Shown piece after piece: positions 16,058 to 49,060 of a DNA stretch of 64,000 bases (position 1 is the first letter of the stretch; each line of letters begins with the position of its first letter). The notes under the pieces are model-generated. The model was not told the origin of the DNA, made no database searches, and saw only the letters and a list, made by a program, of their open reading frames with translations. Origin of the DNA: Corallococcus sp. NCRR (GTDB lineage: Bacteria > Myxococcota > Myxococcia > Myxococcales > Myxococcaceae); NCBI RefSeq assembly GCF_026965535.1, contig NZ_CP114039.1, forward strand, positions 7,971,461 through 8,035,460, in the 5' to 3' direction. Both the position numbers and the translations under genes were made by a program.

Positions 16058-18571
16058 CTAGTGGACCTCGGGAGGGGGCGCTCCCAGCTTCTCCAGCAGC
16101 TTCTCCACCGGATCGCTGTCCTGGCTGACGTCCGCCATGGCGGCCCGGTACTCGATGGAGGTCACCTGCTCCACGTCCGGCATCAGGCGGTTGATGACGG
16201 TGCGCGCCGCGTCCGCGTTGCACTCGGGCAGCACCACCGCGAAGACGCCCTGCCCCAGGTGGGCGATGGCGTCCGGGTGGCGCACGCGCTTGCGCATCAC
16301 ATCCCCCATGTTGGACGGCATCACCTCCAGCTCGCGGTCCGGACGGAGCACCGCCAGCGTGAGGGCGCGGTGGTAGCGGCGGCTGCGGGCCACCTCCTGC
16401 TCCAGCCGCAGCAGCAGGCCCCGGCGATCATGCAACCCCGTCACGGGGTCGCTGCCGGTGCGGCGCTGGAGCGAGTTCGTCTTGGTGTCCTGCTCCTTCT
16501 CGCCCTGACGCAGCTTGAGCGCGCGCTCGGTGCGGTTGAGCAGCTCCACCGCGTTGAAGGGCTTGGCCATGTAGTCCACCGCGCCCAGGTTGAGCGCGCG
16601 GACCTTGTCGGCCACGCCCTGGTGGGCGGACAGGAGGATGACCGGGATGTGCGCCGTGTCCGACGAGGACTTGAGCGCCATGGCCGCGTCCAGGCCGTCC
16701 AGCTTGGGCAGGAACACGTCCATCACCACCAGGTCCGGACGGGACGCCCTCGCCTTCGCCAGGCCCTCCGCGCCGTCGCGCGCCACCTCCACGCGGTACT
16801 TCGAGCGCAGGACCTCCGACAGCACCGCCGCGATCTCCGGCTCGTCCTCCACCACCAGCACGCGCGGCTGCTCGGGGGCGGCGCCGGGCGCGGGCTGCGG
16901 CCGGGGGTTGCGCGCGGCCTCCTGCGCCAGGGGCAGCGTGAAGACGAAGGTGCAGCCGCCGTCGGCCGGGCTCTCCGCCCAGATTTCACCGCCGTGCAGC
17001 TCCACGAACTCCTTGCAGATGGCCAGCCCCAGCCCCGTGCCCTTGGGCCCGTGGCGGTAGCGGTCGAACACGAGGTGCAGTTCGTCCGGCGGGATGCCCA
17101 CGCCGTTGTCGCTCACCATCACGCGCACCGCGTCGCCGTCCGGCCGCGACAGCCGCTGCGTGCGCACCACCACCACGCCCGGGTCGCTGGCGTGCTGGAT
17201 GGCGTTGCTGATGAGGTTCTGCAGCACCTCGTGCAGCTTCACCTCGTCGCCGATGAGCATCAGGCTGTCGGGGCACTCGGAGCGCAGCGACACGGCCTTC
17301 TCCGCCGCCAGGATCTCCAGCTCCGCCACGGCGTCGCGGCACAGCTGCGCCACGTCCAGCACGCGGGGCTCGATGGAGAGGCGCGCCGCCTCCCCCTTGC
17401 CCTTCTCCAGCAGGGACTCGACCAGGGTGAGGATCTTCCGGCCCTGGCGGATCATCGCCTCCGCGGACTGCTTCTGCTGCGTCTCCAGCGGCCCTTCCAG
17501 CAGCAGCCGGCCGTGGCCCAGGAGCACCTGGAGCGGCGCGCGCAGGTCGTGGCTGCACACCGCGATGATCTCATCCTTGAGGCGATTGAGTTCCTTGAGG
17601 CGGCGGTTCGCGTCGTTGAGCTCGCGGTAGCGCTCCACGTACGCCAGCTCCAGGTCCTCGCGCTTCTTCTTCACCGCCGTGTGCAGGCGCGCGTTGCGGA
17701 TGGAGTTGGCGAGCACGCCCGCCACGGCCTCCGCGAACTCCTGTTCGTCGCGCCCGATGGACGCCTCGCCCTTGGACACGCGCAGGAAGAGCGCGCCCAA
17801 CAGGTCGTCCTGGCAGATGAGCGGCTGCACCAGGATGGACTTCACGCCCTGCGGCAACAGCGACGTGCGCACCTCCGCCATCAGCGGGTCGCGCTGCGCC
17901 TCTTCAATCAGCACGGGCTGCCGCGTCTCCAGCGCGCGGCGCAGCTCCGGGTAGCGCGCCACCTCGATGTCCAGTTGGACGAGGCTCGGGTCCTCCTGCG
18001 TCGCGACGACCGTGGCCGTGCGCGCGTGGCTGCCCTCCACCAGCACCACGGAGCAGCGGTCCGTGCCCGTCACCTGGCCGACCTTCTCCACCGCGATGCG
18101 GAGGATCTCCTCCAGCTCCAGCGAGCTGGTGGCCGCCTGGGTGATTTCGAGCAGCATGCCCATGCGCATCCGGATGCGCTCCTCGCGCTCCTTGAGCCGC
18201 CAGGCGCGCAGGGCGGACTCCAGCCGGGGCACCAGCTCATCCGCGCCGCGCACGAAGTCGTCCACCGCCAGCCGCTTGAAGGCCTCCGCCGAGCGCGCGC
18301 GGCCCTGATCCACCAGCACCGGCAGGCGCTGGAGCTTGTCCGTCTTGCGCACCGTCTCCAGCAACTCCGCCGCCCGCTTGGCCGTCACGGCCAGGAGCAC
18401 CACCTCCGGCTGGAGCTGATCCACCATCTCCGCCAGCCCGGTCTCCCGTTCCGTGGAGGCGCACTGGTAGCCACTCGCCGTGAGCCGCTCCACCAGCGCG
18501 TCACCCGCGGCCTTCGCCGCGAGCACGAGCACCCGCCCCCGCTGCTCAGACGACAACATCTCAATCCTCAC
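16058..18571 (-). CDS. Hybrid sensor histidine kinase/response regulator with a GAF domain and a C-terminal degenerate GGDEF-like domain
   Basis: HisKA H-box AVCSHDLRAPLQ; HATPase_c N/G boxes (…DNGVGIPPDEL…GTGLGLAICKEF…); a receiver domain (RVLVVEDEPEIAAV…DLVVMDVFLPKLDG…); a C-terminal GGDEF-fold segment (…DPVTGLHDRRGLL…HLGQGVFAVVLPE) lacking a canonical GGDEF motif. An N-terminal pseudo-receiver and a GAF domain are also present. Confidence 0.75.
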   Translation of the reverse strand: MRIEMLSSEQRGRVLVLAAKAAGDALVERLTASGYQCASTERETGLAEMVDQLQPEVVLLAVTAKRAAELLETVRKTDKLQRLPVLVDQGRARSAEAFKRLAVDDFVRGADELVPRLESALRAWRLKEREERIRMRMGMLLEITQAATSSLELEEILRIAVEKVGQVTGTDRCSVVLVEGSHARTATVVATQEDPSLVQLDIEVARYPELRRALETRQPVLIEEAQRDPLMAEVRTSLLPQGVKSILVQPLICQDDLLGALFLRVSKGEASIGRDEQEFAEAVAGVLANSIRNARLHTAVKKKREDLELAYVERYRELNDANRRLKELNRLKDEIIAVCSHDLRAPLQVLLGHGRLLLEGPLETQQKQSAEAMIRQGRKILTLVESLLEKGKGEAARLSIEPRVLDVAQLCRDAVAELEILAAEKAVSLRSECPDSLMLIGDEVKLHEVLQNLISNAIQHASDPGVVVVRTQRLSRPDGDAVRVMVSDNGVGIPPDELHLVFDRYRHGPKGTGLGLAICKEFVELHGGEIWAESPADGGCTFVFTLPLAQEAARNPRPQPAPGAAPEQPRVLVVEDEPEIAAVLSEVLRSKYRVEVARDGAEGLAKARASRPDLVVMDVFLPKLDGLDAAMALKSSSDTAHIPVILLSAHQGVADKVRALNLGAVDYMAKPFNAVELLNRTERALKLRQGEKEQDTKTNSLQRRTGSDPVTGLHDRRGLLLRLEQEVARSRRYHRALTLAVLRPDRELEVMPSNMGDVMRKRVRHPDAIAHLGQGVFAVVLPECNADAARTVINRLMPDVEQVTSIEYRAAMADVSQDSDPVEKLLEKLGAPPPEVH

Positions 18572-18755
18572 GGCGCGCCTCCGCCCCGCCCAGACAAGGA
18601 ACGACGTCGCGGAAACCCGTTGGGTGCGAAAGGGGTCATGGTCGATTCCGGATCATGCCGTCTAACCCGTCCGCGGGCCAGCGGTTGAACGGGGCTCTCC
18701 TCAAGCGAGAGAGGTGGGAAAAGGCGCGCGACGTATACCCCGGACCGGTGTTCTT

Positions 18756-34356: not shown

Positions 34357-34587
34357 GGTTCAAAGTCCTCCAGAACGGTGGGGCGCCGTCGTGGCGGCAG
34401 GACTGCTTTGGACGAGGGGGCGATGCCAGGGCGCGAACGGGCAAGATGTTAGCCATGCCCCAGAGCAGGTGTCAAAACCACCTCTCGCGACAAAGCGGAA
34501 TCCCAGGACCTCCGGCACTCACGGAGCCTGCCCGCCCAGCGGGGAGGACGGCTCGACGCAGCGGGTGGATCCGCGGCCTTCCGTCCC

Positions 34588-34890
34588 TCAGGGGAACGGC
34601 AGGTTCAGCACGAAGTAGAACGAGTCGTAATAGATCTGGTACGCCTCGAGGAACAGGTCGATGACGTTGGTCTGCCGGTCATCCGTCCAGCGGATCTTCA
34701 CCGTGGCGCCGATGACGAGCCCGACGATCAACACCCAGTTGATCATCGAGTACTCCACCATGGCCTGGCCACGGCGGGCCCGGCGCGGGGAGCGCGGCGG
34801 CGACTTCCGGGGGCTGTTCACGGGGGGAGCGTGCACGTCCGACGTCATGTCCCCATTATCCAGGACCGAGGCCCCGGACGCATCGGTCAT
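34588..34890 (-). CDS. Flp-family (type IVc/Tad) prepilin with an unusually long leader
   Basis: Contains the Flp processing motif G/XXXXEY (RRG|QAMVEY) followed by a hydrophobic helix (SMINWVLIVGLVIGATV). The mature part is ~59 aa. A ~40-aa basic/Pro-rich leader precedes the Gly. Confidence 0.6.
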   Translation of the reverse strand: MTDASGASVLDNGDMTSDVHAPPVNSPRKSPPRSPRRARRGQAMVEYSMINWVLIVGLVIGATVKIRWTDDRQTNVIDLFLEAYQIYYDSFYFVLNLPFP

Positions 34891-34908
34891 GTGGACTGCC
34901 GCCCTCCC

Positions 34909-36354
34909 CTACTGCGCGGGCTGGGCGGGAGCGGCCCCGGCCGGAGCCGCGGGAGCCGCGGGGGACGAGCCCTGACGCAGGCGGCGCTGGGCCAGTTGCG
35001 CCGCGCTGGAGCCGGGGGCCTCCGTGATGATCTGCCCGCAGACGGCGGCGGCCTCCTGGGTCCGGCCCTGCACGGACTCCGACTCGCACAGCCGTGAGAG
35101 CAGCGCCAGCCGCTCGCTGCCGCTGGCTCCGGCCGAGAGCGCGGCGCGCAGCAGCCGTGCCTCCCGGGCGCGGTCTCCCTGGTTCGCGGCGGCCTGGGCC
35201 TGGGCGGACAGGTCGCGCGCCGCCATCGCCTCCTTGGAGGCGGACTTCTCCACGGGCGCGGGCTTCGCGGCCTCCGCGCGGGCGGAGGACGTGGCGGTCG
35301 ACGGTTTCGGGGACACCGCACCGCCGATGGAGCCGATGGAGCCCGTGGCGGCGGGCGCCATGGGTGCGGCCTGGACCACGGGGGCGGAGGCCACGGAAGG
35401 CGGTGGCGGAGGCGCGTCGGCGGCGACGCTCTCGTCGTCGGTGCCGAGCCCGCGGCCATAGGCCGCCTCCCCCAGCCGCAGGGAGTCGCCCTTCGCGCCC
35501 ATGGCCTTGTCGCTGAGCTTGCCGGAGGAGCGCCGCGGCGCGGGTTCCTGCTTCGCGAGGGAGCCGACGCCGGGCGCCTCTTCCTTCGGAGGCGCATCCA
35601 TCGCGGGCGCCCCGGCCGAGGACTGCTCGAGCGCGGCGAACTCCTCCGCGTCGTCCCGGACGGCCTTGGACACCTTCTTCCTGGGAGCCTCGGCCTCCGC
35701 GCGGCGCTCCAGCAGCGCGCCACCGCCGCCCGCGTTCATCCAGTCCGACGGACGGGCCGCGGCGGCGTCCTTGCGCTTCACCTTGGCCTCCACCTGGTTC
35801 TTGCTGAACTCCAGCTCGCGCGGCGCGGACGCCAGCGCGTCCGCGTCACCCTCGGGCACGTCCACCTCGAGGGTCGCGCTCGAAGGCGGCGCGGGGGCTG
35901 GGGCGCTCGGGGCGCTCTTCGCCTGCGTCGACGAATCCTGCTTCGCCGCCTCCATCGCCAGGGCAGGCGCGGCCTTCCGCGACAGGTTCGGCGACAGGTC
36001 GACGTTCTCGCTCACCGTCAACGTCAGCAGGCCGAAGGTACCCACCGTGGCCAGGCCCACCGCGGGCAGGAGGAAGCGGCGCCAGCGCGAGGGCTTCGGC
36101 TCGGGGCCGGCGGCGGCGCGGCGCGCGGACTGCTGTGCGTACGCGAGCAGCGACTCCAGGCCCGCGTCCGGCGCGGGCTCCGACGACAGCTGCGCCATGG
36201 TGGTGCGCACGCCGCGGATGTCCGCCAGCGCCTTGGTGCAGCGCGCGCACCCCTGGACGTGCTGCTCCAGCGCCTGGGCCTCCGACGCGGGCAACTCGCC
36301 GTAGGCGAAGTCGAGGAGCCGGTCCTCGTGCGCGTGGGCATTCTGGGCATTCAT
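34909..36354 (-). CDS. Anti-sigma factor (zf-HC2 N-terminal domain, single TM, large Ala/Pro-rich periplasmic region)
   Basis: Zinc-finger anti-sigma motif H…C..C (HVQGCARCTKALADIRGV) and a TM (LLPAVGLATVGTFGLLTLTV). The start overlaps the ECF sigma stop (ATGA). Confidence 0.7.
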   Translation of the reverse strand: MNAQNAHAHEDRLLDFAYGELPASEAQALEQHVQGCARCTKALADIRGVRTTMAQLSSEPAPDAGLESLLAYAQQSARRAAAGPEPKPSRWRRFLLPAVGLATVGTFGLLTLTVSENVDLSPNLSRKAAPALAMEAAKQDSSTQAKSAPSAPAPAPPSSATLEVDVPEGDADALASAPRELEFSKNQVEAKVKRKDAAAARPSDWMNAGGGGALLERRAEAEAPRKKVSKAVRDDAEEFAALEQSSAGAPAMDAPPKEEAPGVGSLAKQEPAPRRSSGKLSDKAMGAKGDSLRLGEAAYGRGLGTDDESVAADAPPPPPSVASAPVVQAAPMAPAATGSIGSIGGAVSPKPSTATSSARAEAAKPAPVEKSASKEAMAARDLSAQAQAAANQGDRAREARLLRAALSAGASGSERLALLSRLCESESVQGRTQEAAAVCGQIITEAPGSSAAQLAQRRLRQGSSPAAPAAPAGAAPAQPAQ

Positions 36355-37031
36355 CCCGCCACCGTCCTTCCATCCTCCGACAGGTCGCCGTCCACGCCCA
36401 GCTCACCCAGGCGGCGGCGCAGGCCCTCCAGCGCGTAGCGCATGCGGCTCTTCACCGTGTTCTCGGACACGCCCGTCACCTCGGCGATCTCCTTGAACGG
36501 GATGCCGCTGTACTCGCGCAGCACGAACACCTCGCGCTGCTCCTCCGGCAGGGCTGACAGGGCCCGCTCCAGGAGCGGCCGGAGGCGGGCGTTGTGCGCG
36601 CCGCGCTCCGGGCTGGCCCCGGCATCCGGCAGCCCCTCGCCCAGCGGACGTCCCTCGTCGCCGTCGGCACCCGCCGAGGGGGCTTCCAGGGACGTCGCCT
36701 GGCGGTAGCTCTCTTTGCGGGTGCTGTCCACGCAGAGGTTCCTCGCGATGGTGTACAGCCAGGTCGTGAACCGGGCCTTGGGCTCGTATTCCCGGGCGCT
36801 GCGGACCACCTTGAGCCAGGTCTCCTGCAGCACGTCCTCCGCCCGCGCCCTGTGGCCCACGAAGCGCAGGATGAAGTTGAACACCGGCGCGCGGTGCTTG
36901 CGCACCAACGCTTCGAACGCACGCGCGTTTCCCGCCTGGAAGGCGAGCATCAGCTGCTCGTCTGAGGTTTCGGGTGCCAAACTTCCCCCAGTGCCCATGA
37001 AGCCACGGGTGCCATCCCCTTCACCGCCCAC
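36351..37031 (-). CDS. ECF-subfamily RNA polymerase sigma factor (sigma-70 regions 2 and 4)
   Basis: Region 2 (…VLQETWLKVVRSAREYEPKARFTTWLYTIARNLCVDSTRK…) and region 4 HTH (…FKEIAEVTGVSENTVKSRMRYAL…). Confidence 0.8.
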   Translation of the reverse strand: MGGEGDGTRGFMGTGGSLAPETSDEQLMLAFQAGNARAFEALVRKHRAPVFNFILRFVGHRARAEDVLQETWLKVVRSAREYEPKARFTTWLYTIARNLCVDSTRKESYRQATSLEAPSAGADGDEGRPLGEGLPDAGASPERGAHNARLRPLLERALSALPEEQREVFVLREYSGIPFKEIAEVTGVSENTVKSRMRYALEGLRRRLGELGVDGDLSEDGRTVAG

Positions 37032-37062: not shown

Positions 37063-37470
37063 CTATTCCGGCCGTGGCCGCCGGTAAGTGGCGAGAATGA
37101 CAGGGACCGCCACCCCTGTCACCAGAAGTGCCTGCGCCAGCAGCACCGCCGGTAGCGGGCGCTGCACATGCACGTACAGCGAGCGGCCGAGCCCCACTCC
37201 CAACAGGATGCCCGTCAGCGTGCGCACCGCGTTGGAACCCGAAGCGGGCCGGAAGCGTCCCACCGCCCAGTCCACGAGCGCGGGCAGCGTGAGCCCCAGC
37301 ACCACCGGCACGTCCCACTCCCACTGGAGCGGCGCCTTCAGCGCGAACAGGCCGGCGAAGACGGCGGCGAGCACCGGGTACGTGCCCAGGCACCGCGCGC
37401 ACACGCGCACGCCCGCGAGCACGTACGTGCGGTTGTACTCATCCGGGTGATGATGGCTGAGCCAGAACAC
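37063..37470 (-). CDS. DUF2085-like small membrane protein (start uncertain)
   Basis: CxxC motif (CARCLG) before 3-4 TM helices, typical of DUF2085. The supplied ORF's 5' end overlaps the upstream ABC-ATPase gene, so the start was placed at an internal GTG. Low confidence on the exact boundary. Confidence 0.4.
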
Positions 37471-38490
37471 CGGCACCTCCTCCGGACGTGGAAACAGCGG
37501 GTCCGTCCCGCACGCCGCGCGAATCCCCTTCGGCCAGGAAGCACGCCGCGGCGTGGCCTCCGCCCAGGGGATACAGCGGCGGGGATTCGCGGCGGCAGCG
37601 CTCCATCGCATGCGGGCAGCGCGGATGGAACGCGCAGCCGGCCGGCGGCGACAGGGGCGAAGGAGGCTCGCCCGGCAGCAGCTGGCGCGCGCGGGGATGC
37701 TCCGGATCCGGCACGGGCACCGCGGACAGCAGCGCCTGCGTGTACGGATGGCGGGGCCCGGCGTACAGCGCCCGGGACGGCGCGACCTCCACGATGCGGC
37801 CCAGGTACATCACCGCCACGCGCGTGGACACGTACTCAACAATCTTCAGGTCGTGCGCGATGAAGACGTAGGTGAGCCCGCGCTCGCGCTGCAGGTCCAC
37901 CAGCAGGTTGACGATCTGCGCCTGGATGGAGACGTCCAGCGCGCTGATGGGCTCGTCCGCCACCACCAGCTCCGGACGCAACGCGATGGCACGTGCAATG
38001 CCGATGCGTTGACGCTGGCCGCCGGAGAACTCATGCGGGTAGCGCTGCCGCGCCTCGCGGGGCAGCCCCATGGCGTCGAGCAACGCCAGCACCTCGTCCT
38101 CGCGCGCCTTGCCCTTCGCCAGGCCGTGGATGGCGAAGGGCTCCGCGAGGATGTCCCCCACCGTCATGCGCGGGTTGAGCGACGCGTACGGGTCCTGAAA
38201 CACGAGCTGCATCTGCCGGCGCAGCGGCCGCAATTCGCGCTGCGACAGGCCGGTGAGCTCGCGGCCGGCCACGCGGATGGAGCCGGAGGTCGGGTCGATG
38301 AGCCGCAGCACCGCGCGCCCCAGCGTGCTCTTGCCGCAGCCGCTCTCCCCTACCAGGCCCAGCGTCTCGCCGCGGGCGACGTCGAAGGACACGCCGTCCA
38401 CCGCGCGCACCGTGCCGCGCGTGCGGCCCAAGAGGCCGCCCCTCACCGGGAAGTGCACCTTCAGGTCGCGCACCTGGAGCAGCGGTTCGC

Positions 38491-38494
<4 letters not shown>
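37439..38494 (-). CDS. OppF/DppF-like ABC ATP-binding protein (orphan: no cognate permease or substrate-binding protein in the cluster)
   Basis: Walker [10 protein letters not shown], signature LSGGQRQR, Walker B LVVADEP, plus the C-terminal oligopeptide-ABC extension with Cys cluster ([14 protein letters not shown]). The start is ATG 38494, overlapping the stop of the next ATPase gene. Confidence 0.8.
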
Positions 38495-39518
<1,024 letters not shown>

Positions 39519-39522
<4 letters not shown>

Positions 39523-40526
39523 TTCTGGGCCAGCTCCTCCAGGAACTCCGCCTCCTGGATGAGCCCCTTGCGGATGAGCAGGCGGATGAGGCTCGCGACC
39601 ATGCGCGCGGGCTTCACCTTCTCCGTGTCCAGGCTGGCCTCTTCACCGCGCGAGATGCGGTCGATGTCGTCCAGCACCGCCAGGTCCTCCTCGGAGAAGT
39701 CCGGCTTGGGCGTGAGCGCCACGGACGGCTTCACGCCCTGCGCGGCGCCTCCGAAGAGCACCACCGGCACGCGCGGCTTGCTCGGGTCCTCCGGCTCCGC
39801 GGCGGGCGGAGGCGGCGGACGGGCCGCGGCGGGCGGAGGCGGCGGACGCGGGGCCTTGGGGACCTTGGGACGGGGCGTGGAGCCCAGGATGTCCTCCAGC
39901 ACCTCGGCGCCGTCGGCTCCCGACTCGTTGGGCGGCGGCGGCGGCAGGTCCCAGTCCAACGTCGGCGGCGCGGGCGGACGCGGCGGCGTGGGCGCGCGCG
40001 CGGCGGCCGGAGGCGACGGCGGCGACGGCAGGATGTCCGGCGAATCGTCTTCGTCCATGTCCATCGGTTCAGCCTCCACGATGTCCAGGGGCTCGCCCCG
40101 TCCGCGAGAGAGTGCCTGCTCCATGTCGTCCGGCGCGGCGACGAACACCTTGAGCGGCTTGCGCAGCTGGAAGCGCAGCTCGTCCACCAGCATCAGGTTG
40201 CCCGGGTCCTCCACCGCGACGTGGACCTTCTCGCTGCGGCCGTCCTGCTCCGCCGCGAAGAGGAGCACCCGGTGCTCGGACTGGAAGTCCATGGACACCA
40301 GCGAGGACACCGCATGCGGGATGTACTCGGGGATCTCCACGAACGGCAGCTCGTGCTGCGCCGCCAGCGCCCGCGCGATGTCCCGGCCCGTGCACAGGCC
40401 CATGGACACCAGCACCTCACCCAGCTTGCGGCCCTGGCCGCGCCTTCCCGACGCGAGGGCCTGCTTCACCTGCTCGTCCGTCACCACTCCGGCCTGGACG
40501 AGGAGTTCACCAATCTTCTTGCGCAT
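39519..40526 (-). CDS. T2SSE_N (MshEN-like) domain protein without an ATPase domain, with a Pro-rich linker and short C-terminal helix
   Basis: The N-terminal ~150 aa match the GspE/PilB N-terminal domain ([65 protein letters not shown]…). A ~100-aa P/A-rich linker follows. There are no Walker motifs. Confidence 0.7.
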
Positions 40527-40535
40527 GGCCGGGGG

Positions 40536-41288
40536 CTACCGCTTGACCTTGGCGAGGTATTCCTCGCGGGAGAAAACGCCCTTCTCGATGAGCAGCTCCA
40601 CCATGGCCTTCAGCGCCGCGACCTCCTTGCGCTGGACCTCCTCCACGCTCTTGAGCAGGTCCGCGGGGCTGCCGGACGGGGCCTGACGGGGGGGCTCCGC
40701 CGGAGGGGCCTGACGGGGGGGCGGAGCGGCGGCCGGCTTGGGGGACATGGCGACGGCGGCGGCCGGGTCCAGGTCCTTGAGGTTCTTCACGACGGTGCGG
40801 CCCTGCGCGTCCACCACCTTGAAGTTGGTGTCCGCGTCCTCCAGCTCCGCCGTCTCCTCGTAGAGGCGCGCGAACGCCCGCGCCACGGAGGTGCGCCCGG
40901 CCACGTTGGCCACGATGCGGCACTTGGACAGGGCGCGCAGCTCGTCCAGGACGCGCACGTTGAGCGGGTCCGACATGGCGACGACCAGCGTCTTGCCATC
41001 GTCGCGAAGCTGCAGCGGCACCACGGAGAAGTCGCGCGCCGTCTGCGCCGGGATCTTGGCCTTCACGTGCGGCGGCACCATCTGCACGGAGTCCAGGTTC
41101 ACCGCCGGCATGCCCAGCTGCTTCGACAAGGCGCGCACGAGGATGTCCTCGGAGACGAGGTTCATCCGGACGAGGATCTCGCCCAGCTTCCCGCCCCACT
41201 TGGCCTGCTCGGCGAGCGCCGCCTTGAGCTGGCTCTCCTGCAGGACGTTCGCCTTGATCAGCAGTTCTCCAAGCTTGATCTGTGCCAT
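40536..41288 (-). CDS. T2SSE_N (MshEN-like) domain protein without an ATPase domain (paralogue of the preceding gene)
   Basis: N-terminal domain (MAQIKLGELLIKANVLQESQLKAALAEQAKWGGKLGEILVRMNLVSEDILVRALSKQLGMPAVNLDSV…), then a P/A-rich linker and C-terminal helix (…KAMVELLIEKGVFSREEYLAKVKR). No Walker motifs. Confidence 0.7.
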   Translation of the reverse strand: MAQIKLGELLIKANVLQESQLKAALAEQAKWGGKLGEILVRMNLVSEDILVRALSKQLGMPAVNLDSVQMVPPHVKAKIPAQTARDFSVVPLQLRDDGKTLVVAMSDPLNVRVLDELRALSKCRIVANVAGRTSVARAFARLYEETAELEDADTNFKVVDAQGRTVVKNLKDLDPAAAVAMSPKPAAAPPPRQAPPAEPPRQAPSGSPADLLKSVEEVQRKEVAALKAMVELLIEKGVFSREEYLAKVKR

Positions 41289-41347
41289 GTCGTGCGCGCC
41301 ATAGTACCCGGTTTGCGCCGGGACGCTGCCTTTCGACGCCTGGAAGC

Positions 41348-42178
41348 TCAGGAACCCGGCGCTGGGGGCGGCCGGGACACCGGCCCCTCCGGCCGGACCT
41401 CCTGGCCCCGCGCGTCCACGTCCACCACCTTCGCCCCCTCGGGCGCGCCCATTTCATAGAGCGTCAGGTCCGGGCGGCCGTTGAGGCGGATGTCCGTGTA
41501 CTTCAGGTCCAGCTTCGTGTCCGCCGAGGCGGCGATGAGGTGCACCTTGTCCGGGAAGAACTGGTCGCCCCGCTGCTGGAAGTCCTCGAACGCCAGGTCG
41601 TAGCCCGGCACGCCCCGGACCTCGCTCTTCACGATGCGCAGGTGTTTGGGATCCACGCGCAGTGTCTGCGTGGCCGGGCCCCGCTGGAGCTTGAGCACGT
41701 ACACCCGCTCCTTCTCGTCCAGCTCCAGGGTCATGGACTCCGGCGGCAGCAGGGGGACCTGCCCCAGCATCACCGCCACCAGCTCCTCGCTCGGCAGGAC
41801 GACGGGCAGGAAGCGGGACACGTTCTCCGCGCTCGCCGGGCCCTGGAGGTACGTGTTCTCCCGCGCCTGGTAGACGCCGAAGCGCTCACCGTCGGAGACG
41901 AGCGAGGCCACCGGACGGTTGAAGAAGTCGTACGTCTCCAGGTGGATGAGGGCCGGGCGGGTGATGGAGAGATAGGTGGAGAGCGTTCCGCTGCCCTGGG
42001 GTGAGTCCACGTGCAGCTTGGCGTCACCCTCCAGGTTCACGACCTTCGCCTGCCGCTCGCGCACGTGCTGGTAGAGCGTCTGGGCGTCCTCGATGCGGCC
42101 CTCCGGACCGAACTCGAGACGTTTGGGGCAGGCCGAACAGAGGAGGGCCAGGAAGATTGCGGCGGCTGCGCGGTTCAT
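41348..42178 (-). CDS. Lipoprotein, LolA/DUF4292-like fold (last gene of the Tad-like cluster)
   Basis: Signal peptide plus lipobox (FLALLCSAC|P). The beta-rich body is reminiscent of the outer-membrane lipoprotein carrier/LolB fold. Confidence 0.55.
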   Translation of the reverse strand: MNRAAAAIFLALLCSACPKRLEFGPEGRIEDAQTLYQHVRERQAKVVNLEGDAKLHVDSPQGSGTLSTYLSITRPALIHLETYDFFNRPVASLVSDGERFGVYQARENTYLQGPASAENVSRFLPVVLPSEELVAVMLGQVPLLPPESMTLELDEKERVYVLKLQRGPATQTLRVDPKHLRIVKSEVRGVPGYDLAFEDFQQRGDQFFPDKVHLIAASADTKLDLKYTDIRLNGRPDLTLYEMGAPEGAKVVDVDARGQEVRPEGPVSRPPPAPGS

Positions 42179-42220
42179 ATGTCCTAGTGTGAGCCAGGGC
42201 CGCCTGCCCGGTCATCCATC

Positions 42221-42952
42221 ATGAGCCTGAACGATCTACTTCATTACCTTCGCCTGGGCGGCGTCACCCTCGCCCTCCTCCTGGGCGCCTCCGTGGTGGC
42301 CCTGGGCGTGGCCATCGAGCGGCTCATCGCCCTCTGGGGCGTGAGCGAGCGCTCCCGCAACCTGGGGGAGATCGTCCAGAAGCACCTCCTCCGGGGTGAC
42401 ATGGCCGCCGCCCGCACCGCCGCCGAGCGCTCCGACGCCGTGGCGGCCGACATCTTCCTCGCCGGGTTCGACCGCTGGGAGCGCTCCCGCGCCAGTGGCG
42501 GCAACGGCATCGAGTCCGCCGTGGAGCGCGAGCGCGCCCAGGTGGGCTTGAAGCTGCGGCGCAACCTGTGGCTGCTCGCCACCATCGGCTCGACGACGCC
42601 CTTCGTGGGCCTCTTCGGCACCGTGGCCGGCATCATGCGCTCCTTCAAGGACCTGGGCGTGGACGTGGAGGCCGGCGGCACCGGCGGCTCCGCGGCCGTG
42701 ATGACGGGCATCTCCGAGGCGCTCGTCGCCACCGCCGTGGGCATCCTCGTCGCCGTGCAGGCGATGGTCTTCTACAACTACTTCCAGGCCCGGCTATCCC
42801 GCGTGCTGGTGGAGCTGCGCCTGTTGGGCGACGAGTTCGCGGAGGTCCTCAAGGAGCGCTCCGCCGGTGGCCCGCTGCCGGACGCCACGCAGCCCCCGCG
42901 CGAGAGCGCCACGCCCCCCGCGCCCCGCCCGGATCCGCAGCCCGCCTCGTAA
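42221..42952 (+). CDS. exbB: MotA/TolQ/ExbB-family proton channel
   Basis: Three TM segments with the family signature …LWLLATIGSTTPFVGLFGTVAGIMRSF…LVATAVGILVAV…. Confidence 0.8.
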   Translation: MSLNDLLHYLRLGGVTLALLLGASVVALGVAIERLIALWGVSERSRNLGEIVQKHLLRGDMAAARTAAERSDAVAADIFLAGFDRWERSRASGGNGIESAVERERAQVGLKLRRNLWLLATIGSTTPFVGLFGTVAGIMRSFKDLGVDVEAGGTGGSAAVMTGISEALVATAVGILVAVQAMVFYNYFQARLSRVLVELRLLGDEFAEVLKERSAGGPLPDATQPPRESATPPAPRPDPQPAS

Positions 42953-42967
42953 GGAGACACGCCCACC

Positions 42968-43423
42968 ATGGCCATGGGAAAGACGCCCGGCTCGGGCGAT
43001 GACGAGGTGGAGGGCGCGGGCTTCGCGGAGATCAACATCACGCCGCTGACGGACGTGATGCTCGTGCTGCTCATCATCTTCATGGTGACCAGCTCGGTCA
43101 TCACCCAGCAGGGTCCGGGCGGCGGCGCGAAGGCGGGCCTCAAGGTGAACCTGCCCAAGGGCGGCGCCGCGGACGTCACCGCGAAGACCACCGACCTGTC
43201 CGTGGCGGTGCTGGCGGATGGCCGCTTCGTGCTCGCGGGCAACGTCGTCGCGGAAGCGGAGCTGAAGCAGGCCTTCGACGCCGCGAAGAACCAGAACCCA
43301 GACACCGTGGTCATCGTGCAGGCGGACGAAGGCGTTCCCCACGGCACCGTGGTGCAGGTGATGGAGCTGGCGAAGAAGGCCGGCCTCGCGCAGCTCGCCA
43401 TCGGCGTGCGCGAAGGCAACTAA
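42968..43423 (+). CDS. exbD: ExbD/TolR-family biopolymer transport protein
   Basis: N-terminal motif INITPLTDVMLVLLIIFMVT and a periplasmic domain. It lies 16 nt downstream of exbB. Confidence 0.8.
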   Translation: MAMGKTPGSGDDEVEGAGFAEINITPLTDVMLVLLIIFMVTSSVITQQGPGGGAKAGLKVNLPKGGAADVTAKTTDLSVAVLADGRFVLAGNVVAEAELKQAFDAAKNQNPDTVVIVQADEGVPHGTVVQVMELAKKAGLAQLAIGVREGN

Positions 43424-47693: not shown

Positions 47694-47938
47694 CGGAGAT
47701 TGCTCCCGAATTCCAAGGGGTTACAGCCATTTACGTTGGGTAGGCGGCCACCATAGAACACGGCTCGACGGGCAGGCAAGCAGGACGTGGAGTCCGGCGA
47801 CCACCTGTTTGAGGGAAACTTCAAGAATTCCGGTAGTTTGGCGGCACTGGAAAGCTTGGGGGGGCCTGTTTGCCCGTCTGCGGACCGGCTATAAGAGTCT
47901 GAGAAAAACGCAGCCACTCGCTCGGAGCGTATCAGCCC

Positions 47939-49060
47939 ATGGCCCGAATCCTCGTGGTGGACGACGACGTGCTCATCCTCGCGGCGCTGTCCCGGATCCT
48001 CCAGGCGGAGGGTTACGAGGTCGTGACACACAGCGACCCGGTGGTGGCGGCGCGGGAGCAGGGGTTCGACGTCGTGCTGACGGACTTCATGATGCCGTAC
48101 CTCAACGGCATCGAGCTGCTGTCGGCGCTCCGGGAGAAGAACCCGCGCGCGGTGCGGCTGATGCTGACGGCGGCGGCGGACTTCAAGACGGCGTCGGAGG
48201 CGGTGAACCGGGGCGAGGTCTTCCGCCTGCTGGGCAAGCCGTGGGCGCTGAGCGAGCTGACCAGCAGCATCCGGCAGGCCTTCGAGCACCACCGGCTGGT
48301 GGCGGTCAACGAGCGGCTGACGCGCGAGGTGGCGGAGAAGAACGCGGAGCTGCTGGCCATCAACGAGGGGCTGGAGCGCCGGGTGATGGAGCGCACCACG
48401 GGCCTTCTGGACGGGCTCATCAGCGCGCTGGACTACCGCGACACGGAGACGCAGTGGCACTCGCGGCGCGTGTCGCTGTACGCGCGGCGGCTGGCGCAGG
48501 AGATCGGCCTCACCGGACCCGCGCTGGACGTCGTGGAACAAGGCGCGCTCCTGCACGACATCGGGAAGATTGGCGTGCGCGACTCCATCCTGCTCAAGCC
48601 CGGGCCGCTCACGCCGGACGAATGGGTGGAGATGAAGCTGCACCCGGAGTTCGGCTACCGGATGCTGGCGAAGATGCCGTACCTGCACGAGGCGGCGCTC
48701 ATCGTCCTGCAACACCAGGAGCGCTGGGACGGCAAGGGCTACCCGCTGGGGCTCAAGGGCGAGGAGATCGTCATCGGGGCGCGCATCTTCTGCCTCGTGG
48801 ACACGCTGGACGCCATCACCTCCGACCGGCCCTATCGCAAGGGGCGCCCCATGAGCGTGGCGCGCGACGAGGTCCGCCGCTGCGCGGGCACGCAGTTCGA
48901 TCCGATGCTCGCGGACGCGTTCCTCGGTCTGCCGGAGACGGAGTGGGCCCGCATCCGCCGCGAGGTGGAGGAGATGGAAGAGGCGGAGGGCCACCGCTGG
49001 ACGGGCGCGAAGCTCGACGCGAACGGACAGCCCGTGCCCGCGCGCGCCGCCGGGGCCTGA
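47939..49060 (+). CDS. Response regulator with an HD-GYP output domain (c-di-GMP phosphodiesterase-type)
   Basis: Receiver domain (ILVVDDDVLI…DVVLTDFMMPYLNG…). HD motif (LLHDIGK) and the HHExxDGxGYP-equivalent (LQHQERWDGKGYPLGL). Confidence 0.8.
   Translation: MARILVVDDDVLILAALSRILQAEGYEVVTHSDPVVAAREQGFDVVLTDFMMPYLNGIELLSALREKNPRAVRLMLTAAADFKTASEAVNRGEVFRLLGKPWALSELTSSIRQAFEHHRLVAVNERLTREVAEKNAELLAINEGLERRVMERTTGLLDGLISALDYRDTETQWHSRRVSLYARRLAQEIGLTGPALDVVEQGALLHDIGKIGVRDSILLKPGPLTPDEWVEMKLHPEFGYRMLAKMPYLHEAALIVLQHQERWDGKGYPLGLKGEEIVIGARIFCLVDTLDAITSDRPYRKGRPMSVARDEVRRCAGTQFDPMLADAFLGLPETEWARIRREVEEMEEAEGHRWTGAKLDANGQPVPARAAGA

What the first reader, a model, noticed from the sequence alone, without database searches (positions are those of the whole stretch)
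39519..41288. Tandem paralogous T2SSE_N (MshEN-like) domain-only proteins: candidate c-di-GMP receptors or scaffolds without an ATPase
Both proteins have the N-terminal domain of GspE/PilB/MshE secretion ATPases but lack any Walker motifs. Instead they carry long Pro/Ala-rich linkers ending in a short conserved helix (…[20 protein letters not shown] and …LLIEKGVFSREEYLAKVKR).

The MshEN domain is an established high-affinity c-di-GMP binding module. Stand-alone versions inside a Tad-like cluster could couple the machine to c-di-GMP. That would fit the nearby HD-GYP regulator at 47939-49060 and the degenerate-GGDEF kinase at 16058-18571. Alternatively they may recruit a trans-encoded ATPase.
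Basis: partly seen in the sequence, partly recalled or inferred. Interest (0 to 1): 0.6.

Follow-up and report, generated by a model that had tools for sequence, protein, structure and literature searches.

The report
Paired ATPase-less MshEN c-di-GMP sensor candidates
Two adjacent small proteins in a Corallococcus genome carry only the c-di-GMP-sensing N-terminal domain of pilus and secretion ATPases; they are real but uncharacterised, their Myxococcus orthologues were already catalogued, and their conserved neighbours are ABC-transporter ATPases and a sigma/anti-sigma pair rather than the nearby Tad killing pilus.

Summary
ORFs 40536-41288(-) (A, 250 aa) and 39519-40526(-) (B, 335 aa) are paralogues. 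Each is a full MshEN/GSPII domain, a Pro/Ala-rich linker and a conserved C-terminal helix-turn-helix, with no ATPase.

They are the orthologues of M. xanthus MXAN_4667 and MXAN_4666. Both were already listed as MshEN proteins in 2016 and 2022, but I found no study of them.

A keeps every c-di-GMP-contacting residue, and so do about 177 diverse relatives. It passes NCBI's 53-residue c-di-GMP-motif model. B also passes that model, but it is degenerate and evolves fast.

The Tad link is weak. The genes lie five genes outside the published kil cluster II, and Tad adjacency is confined to Myxococcaceae. The deeply conserved module is DUF4292 lipoprotein, A, B, PepT-type ABC ATPase(s), ECF sigma and anti-sigma. 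B and the two ATPases are translationally coupled. In 13 divergent loci, A and B sit inside or directly after an Opp/Dpp importer operon. Deep relatives often have a REC-GGDEF cyclase next door.

Best reading: A is a c-di-GMP receptor and B a degenerate partner, acting in trans on the co-encoded ABC ATPases or the sigma pair. Binding and output are untested.

The parts
40536..41288 (-). Protein A (250 aa), orthologue of MXAN_4667: MshEN domain, linker and C-terminal hairpin. First gene of the operon.
   Evidence: ORF and Pfam MshEN at 55.7 bits. It is 83-85% identical to M. xanthus proteins, including the DK 1622 entry. Operon table of Kuzmich et al. 2022.
41118..41276 (-). A residues 5-57: the 53-residue tandem c-di-GMP-binding motif (KLG..L..L..Q, AKWGG spacer, KLG..L..L..Q).
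   Evidence: NCBIfam NF053729 at 64.8 bits against a cut-off of 38, aligned 5-57 to model positions 1-53. Invariant in 120 orthologues, although 23% of the codons differ synonymously. The contact residues are 88-97% conserved in 177 diverse family members.
40854..41288 (-). A residues 1-145: the whole MshEN/GSPII domain (four-helix bundle plus alpha/beta subdomain).
   Evidence: phmmer matches PilF GSPII domains, Geobacter and M. xanthus PilB, and VcMshE 5htl over residues 4-160. The AF2 secondary structure fits, but pLDDT is low over residues 1-32.
40668..40853 (-). A residues 146-207: linker holding a conserved beta-hairpin-like motif, NFKVVDAQGRTVVK, followed by a Pro/Ala-rich stretch.
   Evidence: Conservation in orthologues. 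The motif recurs in 23 of 210 family members. Low pLDDT.
40539..40667 (-). A residues 208-250: long helix, turn, helix (the C-tail; ...EVAALKAMVELLIEKGVFSREEYLAKVKR).
   Evidence: Nearly invariant in orthologues. Present across the wider family. AF2 helices 208-235 and 241-249 at pLDDT 76-83. No Pfam match.
39519..40526 (-). Protein B (335 aa), orthologue of MXAN_4666: MshEN domain, long Pro-rich linker and C-terminal hairpin.
   Evidence: ORF and Pfam MshEN at 49 bits. Orthologues are 43-58% identical where A is 72-85%. AF2 pLDDT is above 90 over most of residues 11-145. Foldseek TM 0.73-0.78 to c-di-GMP-bound PilF GSPII-B and VcMshE.
40356..40517 (-). B residues 4-57: partly degenerate tandem motif (KIG..V20..L24..G27, 6-residue spacer, KLG..I50..L54..Q57).
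   Evidence: NF053729 at 57.5 bits against a cut-off of 38. Residue counts in 117 orthologues show position 27 as Q49/K34/R26/G6 and a 6-7 residue spacer.
39522..39614 (-). B residues 305-335: C-terminal helix-turn-helix ([31 protein letters not shown]).
   Evidence: Conserved in orthologues. AF2 helices 306-319 and 325-334. The same kind of tail ends the 466-1412 aa B-type proteins of deep MAGs.
41301..41306 (-). -10-like hexamer TACTAT, 12 nt upstream of A's ATG. It implies a 5'UTR of about 5 nt (nearly leaderless).
   Evidence: Read from the sequence. A TAnnnT hexamer at the same distance recurs in most related loci. A TSS was mapped 5 nt upstream of MXAN_4667. The consensus scan found no full sigma-70 site.
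38491..39522 (-). OppD/DppD-type ABC ATPase. Its GTG start overlaps B's stop codon (GTGA).
   Evidence: Pfam ABC_tran plus oligo_HPY. NCBIfam OppD/DppD at 365 bits. Walker A, signature and Walker B motifs are present. Junction sequence.
37439..38494 (-). OppF/DppF-type ABC ATPase. Its ATG overlaps the stop codon of the preceding ATPase (ATGA).
   Evidence: Pfam. NCBIfam DppF subfamily at 415 bits. Motifs and junction.
37063..37611 (-). DUF2085 membrane protein. This is the maximal ORF; the true start is probably nearer 37470.
   Evidence: Pfam DUF2085, E = 1.5e-9. Conserved after the ATPases in Myxococcaceae loci.
36351..37031 (-). ECF sigma factor (MXAN_4662 orthologue).
   Evidence: Pfam Sigma70_r2 and r4_2. 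Follows the pair in Myxococcaceae and in 5 of 7 deep loci.
34909..36354 (-). Membrane-spanning anti-sigma factor with zf-HC2 (MXAN_4661 orthologue, the last gene of the published kil cluster II).
   Evidence: Pfam zf-HC2. HxxxCxxC motif and one TM segment; the deep-MAG counterparts share the N-terminal pattern and, in four of five, the TM segment. Seef et al. 2021 supplementary table.
41348..42178 (-). DUF4292 (LolB-like) lipoprotein directly upstream of A.
   Evidence: Pfam DUF4292 at 57.7 bits. NCBIfam LolB1_Flavo at 46.4 bits, just under the cut-off of 50. Found upstream of A in Myxococcaceae loci. In deep loci a gene of similar size sits there, with a DUF4292 Pfam hit in L083 (weak) and L086.

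Best explanation
A and B are cytoplasmic proteins made of only the MshEN/GSPII regulatory domain of GspE/PilB/MshE-type ATPases, a disordered linker and a C-terminal alpha-hairpin.

A is most likely a real c-di-GMP receptor that binds one c-di-GMP in its N-terminal four-helix bundle. B is a fast-evolving, partly degenerate paralogue that most likely serves as its partner or adaptor. The two may be joined through the similar C-terminal hairpins.

The pair is the front end of a Myxococcota-specific module: DUF4292 lipoprotein, A, B, PepT-type ABC ATPase(s), ECF sigma and anti-sigma. Its most likely role is to pass the c-di-GMP level in trans to the co-translated OppD/OppF-like ABC ATPases. That would do for an ABC ATPase what the fused MshEN domain does for MshE and PilB.

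Shown: domain identity, motif conservation, fold, operon structure and synteny. Inferred: c-di-GMP binding, the A-B interaction and the target.
For: Identity: only Pfam MshEN, above threshold. Full-length domain homology to PilF GSPII, PilB and MshE. Fold match at TM 0.73-0.78 to c-di-GMP-bound structures.

Ligand site:
- NF053729 scores of 64.8 and 57.5 bits against a cut-off of 38.
- A fits the experimentally extended consensus, in which Lys at position 1 is allowed and linked to high affinity.
- The contact residues are 88-97% conserved, and the 5-residue spacer 96% conserved, across 177 members that are only 34-60% identical.
- The 57 N-terminal residues are invariant despite 23% synonymous codon differences.

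Module:
- DUF4292-A-B-OppD-OppF-DUF2085-ECF-anti-sigma in all Myxococcaceae and Archangiaceae loci long enough to show it.
- B/ABC1 and ABC1/ABC2 overlap as GTGA and ATGA. The same 4-8 nt B/ABC overlaps occur in L081 and L087.
- In 13 divergent loci, permease genes (with an SBP_bac_5 gene in 11) lie immediately upstream of A, so A and B are embedded in or directly follow an importer operon.
- Deep MAGs keep a NikE/DppF-like solo ATPase after B.

c-di-GMP context: REC-GGDEF beside the module in L081, L082, L086 and L087, and a PilZ gene in L085.

Expression: the M. xanthus operon MXAN_4667 to 4662, with a strong TSS at -5.
Against: - No binding data exist for these proteins or any family member.
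- The turn glycines G18 and G47 of the canonical motif are Asn in A. Wang et al. call them highly conserved. However, motif II's turn residue is free (N > G > S) across the family.
- The AF2 model of A's four-helix bundle has low confidence.
- In the window and in crown Myxococcaceae no SBP or permease accompanies the ATPases, so the transporter target is incomplete there.
- The ABC ATPase is missing from 4 of 7 deep loci, whereas sigma/anti-sigma is present in 5 of 7.
- Synteny within one phylum can reflect inheritance rather than function.
- The similarity of the tail to a motif hairpin is statistically weak (hhalign P = 0.0035, probability 9%).
Confidence: 0.4

Rival explanations
1. One reading: A and B are accessory parts of the Kil (Tad-like) killing pilus. 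They would couple it to c-di-GMP, for example by docking onto the platform proteins KilG/KilH or recruiting the FHA-containing CpaF-like ATPase KilF, which is encoded elsewhere.
For: They are on the same strand, about 5 kb upstream of KilB-KilG-KilH, in Corallococcus. L077, a divergent MAG (A 44% identical), has DUF4292-A-TadE-TadG-...-CpaB-TadB with B, ABC and sigma absent. L055, L062 and L069 also keep CpaB/TadB/TadC downstream. MshEN domains normally regulate type IV filament ATPases.
Against: MXAN_4666/4667 lie outside the kil cluster II that was delimited genetically (MXAN_4648-4661), and neither Kil paper mentions them. The deep Myxococcota loci that keep DUF4292-A-B-sigma have no Tad genes within 8 kb. 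A has its own promoter and is operonic with the ABC ATPases, not with tad genes.
Confidence: 0.17
2. A and B feed c-di-GMP levels into the adjacent ECF sigma/anti-sigma pair, acting on the cytoplasmic anti-sigma domain in a partner-switch-like way. They would thereby control the sigma regulon, which in Myxococcaceae could include the downstream kil genes.
For: ECF sigma plus a single-pass anti-sigma follows the pair in all Myxococcaceae loci long enough to show it and in 5 of 7 deep loci, more often than the ABC ATPase does. It is in the same operon in M. xanthus, with an extra internal TSS before MXAN_4662. From my own knowledge, c-di-GMP control of a sigma/anti-sigma pair has a precedent in RsiG-WhiG of Streptomyces.
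Against: The pair is not translationally coupled to the sigma gene. In Archangium loci 1-5 kb of other DNA separates DUF2085 from the sigma gene. The sigma pair is absent from L085, which keeps the pair; L084, a lone A-type gene, lacks it too. No MshEN-sigma interaction is known.
Confidence: 0.2
3. A and B do not bind c-di-GMP at all. They would be protein-protein adaptors that use the MshEN fold and the C-terminal hairpins as interaction surfaces, as XpsE-N binds XpsL and X. citri PilB-N binds PilZ.
For: MshEN domains that do not bind the ligand exist, such as XpsE and PilF GSPII-A. The PilB(N)-PilZ complex is among the fold hits. A lacks both turn glycines, and B lacks the motif I glutamine and has a longer spacer. 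The total invariance of A's bundle goes beyond what ligand contacts alone require.
Against: The non-binders have several substitutions at contact residues. A has none, and its family keeps them at 88-97%. Both proteins exceed the curated cut-off of the c-di-GMP-motif model. Diguanylate cyclase genes are neighbours in deep loci.
Confidence: 0.15

Closest known systems
MshEN/GSPII c-di-GMP-binding domain of V. cholerae MshE (PDB 5HTL) and T. thermophilus PilF GSPII-B (PDB 8PDK)
   Same: Same two-subdomain fold (TM 0.73-0.78) and the same tandem 24-residue motifs. A has Lys at position 1 of both motifs; PilF GSPII-B has Lys at position 1 of motif I and Leu in motif II.
   Different: No fused T2SS/T4P ATPase. 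The turn glycines are replaced in A. A disordered linker and a family-specific C-terminal hairpin are added. The genes sit in an ABC-ATPase/ECF-sigma operon rather than a pil, gsp or msh operon.
M. xanthus MXAN_4667 and MXAN_4666 (catalogued MshEN-domain proteins)
   Same: Direct orthologues with the same gene order and operon. M. xanthus A-type proteins are 83-85% identical to A, and Myxococcus B-type proteins about 55-60% identical to B.
   Different: None in kind. They are listed and aligned in Wang et al. 2016 and Kuzmich et al. 2022, but no paper in the searched library names them in its main text.
MshEN domains with a non-ATPase output or none: E. coli NfrB (c-di-GMP-activated glycosyltransferase) and P. 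aeruginosa PA3740
   Same: They show that MshEN works as a portable c-di-GMP sensor outside secretion ATPases. A and B both hit the NfrB and PRK15489 C-terminal MshEN regions in NCBIfam.
   Different: In NfrB the output domain is fused. Here any output must be reached in trans, and the proteins come as a conserved intact/degenerate pair.
X. citri PilB N-terminal domain in complex with PilZ (PDB 7LKO); XpsE-N
   Same: MshEN-fold domains used as protein-docking modules without c-di-GMP binding.
   Different: Those have lost the contact residues, whereas A retains all of them.

Membership tests
MshEN / GSPII domain (Pfam PF05157) | Match to the Pfam model above the gathering score | tested here: met
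   A 55.7 bits and B 49 bits against a cut-off of 23.1.
MshEN / GSPII domain (Pfam PF05157) | N-terminal four-helix bundle plus alpha/beta C-subdomain fold | tested here: met
   B model has pLDDT above 90 over most of residues 11-145. Foldseek gives TM 0.73-0.78 and probability 1.00 to 5HTL and 8PDK. A's secondary structure agrees, but the bundle has low confidence.
c-di-GMP-binding MshEN receptors | The 53-residue tandem motif recognised by the curated model NF053729 | tested here: met
   A 64.8 bits (residues 5-57) and B 57.5 bits (residues 4-57) against a cut-off of 38.
c-di-GMP-binding MshEN receptors | All contact residues (R/K/L)-L-G ... L ... L .. Q in both motifs, with a 5-residue spacer | tested here: met
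   This row is for protein A: K5 L6 G7 L21 L25 Q28, 5 residues, K34 L35 G36 L50 L54 Q57. Invariant in 120 orthologues. Extended consensus.
c-di-GMP-binding MshEN receptors | The same contact residues and spacer, in protein B | tested here: inconclusive
   Motif II is intact. Motif I reads K-I-G..V..L..G27, with position 27 being Q/K/R/G among orthologues. The spacer is 6-7 residues. Deep B-type proteins have a degenerate motif II.
c-di-GMP-binding MshEN receptors | Turn glycines (G18 and G47 of VcMshE) | tested here: not met
   A has N14 and N43 (N or S among orthologues). B keeps both glycines. Motif II's turn residue is free across the A family. The functional consequence is unknown.
c-di-GMP-binding MshEN receptors | Measured specific binding of c-di-GMP | not testable with these tools
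   Needs ITC, DRaCALA or DSF on purified protein.
GspE/PilB/MshE secretion ATPases | C-terminal T2SSE ATPase domain with Walker A and B motifs | tested here: not met
   No such Pfam domain and no GxxxxGK[ST] motif. The proteins end after 250 and 335 residues.
Kil (Tad-like) system, cluster II | Located within the genetically defined cluster MXAN_4648-4661 | tested here: not met
   The orthologues are MXAN_4666/4667, five genes beyond MXAN_4661.
Kil (Tad-like) system, cluster II | Co-occurrence with tad genes across lineages | tested here: inconclusive
   Adjacent in Corallococcus, L036, L055, L062, L069, L071 and L077. Absent within 8 kb in the seven deep Myxococcota loci.
Kil (Tad-like) system, cluster II | [quoted passage not shown] | not testable with these tools
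   Needs deletion mutants and a CPRG or plate predation assay.
PepT-type (Opp/Dpp/Nik) ABC transporter operon, as an accessory component | Encoded in one operon with the transporter's ATPases | tested here: met
   GTGA and ATGA overlaps join B, OppD and OppF. M. xanthus operon table. In 13 loci permease genes, with an SBP gene in 11, lie directly upstream of A.
PepT-type (Opp/Dpp/Nik) ABC transporter operon, as an accessory component | Physical or functional interaction with the ATPases | not testable with these tools
   Needs interaction and ATPase assays.
SHOCT or another known short C-terminal domain (for the tails) | Match to a Pfam model | tested here: not met
   No Pfam family matches either tail, apart from a chance-level CNOT11 hit (E = 0.19) for B's tail.

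The most novel reading that the evidence does not exclude
The intact/degenerate MshEN pair is a stand-alone c-di-GMP sensor that works in trans on a different ATPase superfamily. It would gate OppD/OppF-type ABC ATPases, and so peptide import or a transport-independent signalling role of these orphan ATPases. Through them or directly, it would also gate an ECF sigma/anti-sigma switch that sits upstream of the Kil killing-pilus genes. That would tie second-messenger state to feeding on lysed prey.
Probability: 0.15. Interest if true: 0.7.

Novelty: new variant of a known kind. Interest (0 to 1): 0.45.

Why it matters
M. xanthus is reported to encode 17-22 MshEN proteins, and the function of most of them is unknown. 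Beyond the papers read here, I know of no MshEN protein shown to signal in trans.

If A binds c-di-GMP and acts on the co-encoded ABC ATPases or the sigma pair, that would be a new output class for this receptor domain. It would also give a testable route by which c-di-GMP could reach nutrient uptake or Kil expression in predatory myxobacteria.

If it does not, the pair remains one more catalogued, uncharacterised member of a known receptor family.

Tried and rejected
- Pfam search of the two C-terminal tails at E up to 10. There was no SHOCT or other domain, only a chance CNOT11 hit.
- Profile-profile comparison of the tail with the N-terminal motif hairpins. It aligns in register with motif I, but only at P = 0.0035 and probability 9%, which is too weak to call a third motif. 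BLAST gave a similar hint at E = 0.19.
- Consensus sigma-70 promoter scan of 39300-42300. It found none, and the one terminator-like hit lies inside A's coding sequence and is chance. The -10-like hexamer rests on reading the sequence and on its conservation.
- Full-text searches for MXAN_4661 to MXAN_4668. No paper names them in its main text.
- The AF2 model of A has mean pLDDT 66 and a poorly defined bundle, probably because the alignment is invariant there, so it was not used for fold search.
- I could not read the column headings of Wang et al. Supplementary Table 3. MXAN_4666/4667 are in the first column, FrgA and PulE in the second. I therefore do not claim the authors labelled them predicted binders.
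- I checked whether orf106 might be KilP. It is not, because KilP is MXAN_5121 elsewhere in the genome.

Limits of the synteny evidence:
- The search for related loci used the exact peptides IKANVLQE and EVAALKAM, so it reached only Myxococcaceae and Archangiaceae.
- The deep-lineage picture rests on seven look-ups of relatives of one distant representative. Orthology of those proteins to A is inferred from shared synteny.
Full report
**What is there**

The window has about 70% G+C. Its proteins are up to 98% identical to Corallococcus proteins (C. macrosporus, Corallococcus sp. M7).

Two adjacent minus-strand ORFs with coding-type GC3 match the finding:
- A, 40536-41288, 250 aa.
- B, 39519-40526, 335 aa.

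Pfam finds only PF05157 (MshEN) in each, well above threshold. Neither has a Walker A motif or an ATPase domain. They are paralogues, 32% identical over the domain, E = 3e-15.

Against solved structures, both align over the whole ~145-residue domain with T. thermophilus PilF GSPII domains, Geobacter and M. xanthus PilB, and V. cholerae MshE. The AF2 model of B is confident over most of residues 11-145. Foldseek places it on c-di-GMP-bound PilF GSPII-B and MshE at TM 0.73-0.78. The model of A is poorer.

**The c-di-GMP motif**

Wang et al. [quoted passage not shown] The contacts come from R, L, G, L, L and Q. The central Gly makes the helix turn. Neissner et al. 2024 extended position 1 to R/K/L and linked more hydrophobic residues there to higher affinity.

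Protein A reads K5-L-G..N14..L21..L25..Q28, then AKWGG, then K34-L-G..N43..L50..L54..Q57.
- Every contact residue and the spacer length fit. Only the two turn glycines differ.
- These residues are invariant in 120 orthologues.
- In fact the first 57 residues are essentially invariant across 17 loci, although 23% of those codons differ synonymously. That points to strong purifying selection.

Protein B reads K4-I-G..G13..V20..L24..G27, a 6-residue spacer, then K34-L-G..G43..I50..L54..Q57.
- Among 117 orthologues the motif I glutamine position is Q, K, R or G, and the spacer is 6-7 residues.
- Motif II is intact.

NCBI's curated 53-position model of the binding region (NF053729) scores A at 64.8 bits and B at 57.5 bits, against a cut-off of 38.

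**The wider family**

A search of 1.84 billion cluster representatives found 130 clusters at E <= 1e-30. Most are proteins of 220-350 aa aligned end to end with A. In 177 such proteins that also carry the C-terminal hairpin:
- the contact positions are 88-97% conserved;
- the 5-residue spacer is 96% conserved;
- the motif II turn residue is free (N > G > S).

So A belongs to a large family of MshEN-plus-hairpin proteins under selection to keep the ligand-contacting residues. That is the strongest available argument that A binds c-di-GMP. Binding itself is untested.

**What was already known**

The M. xanthus orthologues are MXAN_4667 (A) and MXAN_4666 (B).
- Kuzmich et al. 2022 list them among 17 MshEN-domain genes.
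- The same paper places them in an operon MXAN_4667-4666-4665-4664-4663-4662 and maps a strong TSS 5 nt upstream of MXAN_4667.
- Wang et al. 2016 list and align both in their supplement.
- No paper in the searched library names MXAN_4661 to 4668 in its main text.

The idea that these are candidate c-di-GMP receptors is therefore not new, but nobody appears to have studied them.

**Is it part of the Tad (Kil) system?**

The window does hold kil cluster II: FHA-TPR, FHA, TadC/KilH, TadB/KilG and CpaB/KilB. The published cluster ends at the zinc-finger anti-sigma gene MXAN_4661. A and B lie five genes further on.

On the minus strand the order is: DUF4292 lipoprotein, A, B, OppD-type ATPase, OppF-type ATPase, DUF2085 membrane protein, ECF sigma, anti-sigma, orf106, KilB, and onward. 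ExbB and ExbD are divergent upstream. Neither Kil paper mentions these genes or c-di-GMP.

**Comparative context**

- *Myxococcaceae and Archangiaceae.* Of 80 related loci fetched, about 45 long enough to show it carry the block ExbD-ExbB / DUF4292-A-B-OppD-OppF-DUF2085-ECF-anti-sigma. A is 72-85% identical where B is only 43-58%. B is missing in two loci, L052 and L060.
- *Divergent MAG loci.* In 13 loci, permease genes lie between DUF4292 and A, a few nucleotides from A's start. Eleven of these loci also show an SBP_bac_5 binding-protein gene. A and B are therefore embedded in, or directly follow, an Opp/Dpp-type importer operon, between the permeases and the ATPases.
- *Deep Myxococcota MAGs.* These were reached through a distant representative. 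The recurring order is TPR protein, DUF4292-like, A-type MshEN, then a long B-type MshEN of 466-1412 aa. The B-type protein has a degenerate motif II and the same kind of C-terminal hairpin. A NikE/DppF-like solo ABC ATPase follows in three loci. Next come an ECF sigma, a single-pass protein with an anti-sigma-like N-terminus, and a ~1200-aa protein.
- *c-di-GMP genes nearby.* A REC-GGDEF gene lies just upstream on the other strand in four of these deep loci. A PilZ gene follows B in a fifth.
- *Tad genes.* None lie within 8 kb in any of the seven deep loci.
- *Exceptions.* L077 reads DUF4292-A-TadE-TadG-...-CpaB-TadB, without B, the ATPases or the sigma pair. L084 holds a lone A-type gene in an unrelated context, so the family includes paralogues outside the module.

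**Operon details**

- B's stop overlaps the GTG start of the OppD-type gene (GTGA).
- That gene's stop overlaps the ATG of the OppF-type gene (ATGA).
- Similar 4-8 nt overlaps join B and the ATPase in L081 and L087, and join A and B in L083 and L086.
- Both ATPases keep Walker A, signature and Walker B motifs.
- A -10-like hexamer, TACTAT, sits 12 nt before A's ATG. Similar TAnnnT hexamers recur at that distance in most related loci, even inside the end of the permease gene. This agrees with the M. xanthus TSS at -5 and implies an almost leaderless transcript.

**Interpretation**

I conclude that A is a probable c-di-GMP receptor and B a degenerate paralogous partner. The pair is the conserved front of a Myxococcota module whose other constant members are a LolB-like lipoprotein, PepT-type ABC ATPase(s) and an ECF sigma/anti-sigma pair.

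The most likely output is the co-translated ABC ATPases, with a trans-acting MshEN regulator replacing the fused one of MshE and PilB. Control of the sigma/anti-sigma pair is a close rival. A role in the Kil machine is possible only as a Myxococcaceae-specific addition. A purely scaffolding, ligand-free role is less likely given the motif conservation.

The similar hairpins at the ends of A and B suggest that they pair, or that both dock on a common partner. Their resemblance to a third half-motif is weak, and no known domain matches them.

All steps beyond domain identity, motif conservation, fold, operon structure and synteny are inference.

**Verdict**

This is a real feature and a reasonable lead. 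Interest is moderate at 0.45. As a kind, it is a new variant of the known MshEN receptor family.

Noticed in passing
window 34360-34908 (between CpaB/KilB and the anti-sigma gene): M. xanthus has eight genes here (MXAN_4653-4660), including KilK and the Tip4 minor pilins KilL4, KilN4 and KilM4. This window has only about 550 bp with one ORF, orf106. That ORF carries an Flp-type prepilin motif (RRG/QAMVEY followed by a hydrophobic helix), so it may be KilK-like. The Tip4 cluster seems to be absent from this locus in Corallococcus.
   Followed up: partly
window 37439-39522: The OppD- and OppF-type ATPases have intact motifs but no binding protein or permease at this locus. Related MAG loci carry the SBP and two permeases at the same place. 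The crown Myxococcaceae therefore appear to keep orphan ATPases, 77-97% identical across genera.
   Followed up: partly
window 41348-42178: The DUF4292 lipoprotein scores 46.4 bits against NCBIfam LolB1_Flavo (lipoprotein insertase LolB1), just below the cut-off of 50. It is always directly upstream of A and divergent from an ExbB/ExbD pair at 42221-43423.
   Followed up: no
window 40806-40847 (A residues 148-161 and the residues that follow): A short conserved motif, DADTNFKVVDAQGRTVVK, is predicted as a small beta-hairpin just after the MshEN domain. It recurs in 23 of 210 family members, including distant ones, and may be a docking element.
   Followed up: partly
window 39744-39782 and 39663-39701 (B residues 249-261 and 276-288): Inside B's otherwise variable Pro-rich linker there are invariant islands: KPRVPVVxFGGAA and [14 protein letters not shown]. 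They look like short linear motifs. The FGG-type island was not found in the long B-type proteins of deep MAGs; the second island was not searched there.
   Followed up: partly
window 41289-41347, and the equivalent region in loci L002-L087: A conserved -10-like TAnnnT hexamer lies 11-13 nt before A's start codon. With the M. xanthus TSS at -5, this implies an almost leaderless mRNA. Archangium-type loci have the hexamer about 45 nt upstream instead.
   Followed up: partly
window 16058-18652 and 47903-49060: An SgmT-like hybrid kinase (GAF-HisKA-HATPase-REC with a truncated GGDEF match and no GGDEF motif) and a REC-HD-GYP protein (MXAN_4675 orthologue, with HD and GYP motifs) flank the region at 22 kb and 7 kb. 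This makes the neighbourhood rich in c-di-GMP genes, but neither is operonic with A and B.
   Followed up: partly
L055 4744-6183 (minus strand): A MepA-like murein endopeptidase (Peptidase_M74 plus LysM) sits beside the complete Opp-type operon that contains A and B; L056 has a homologue at the same position. This hints that the transporter might handle cell-wall peptides.
   Followed up: no
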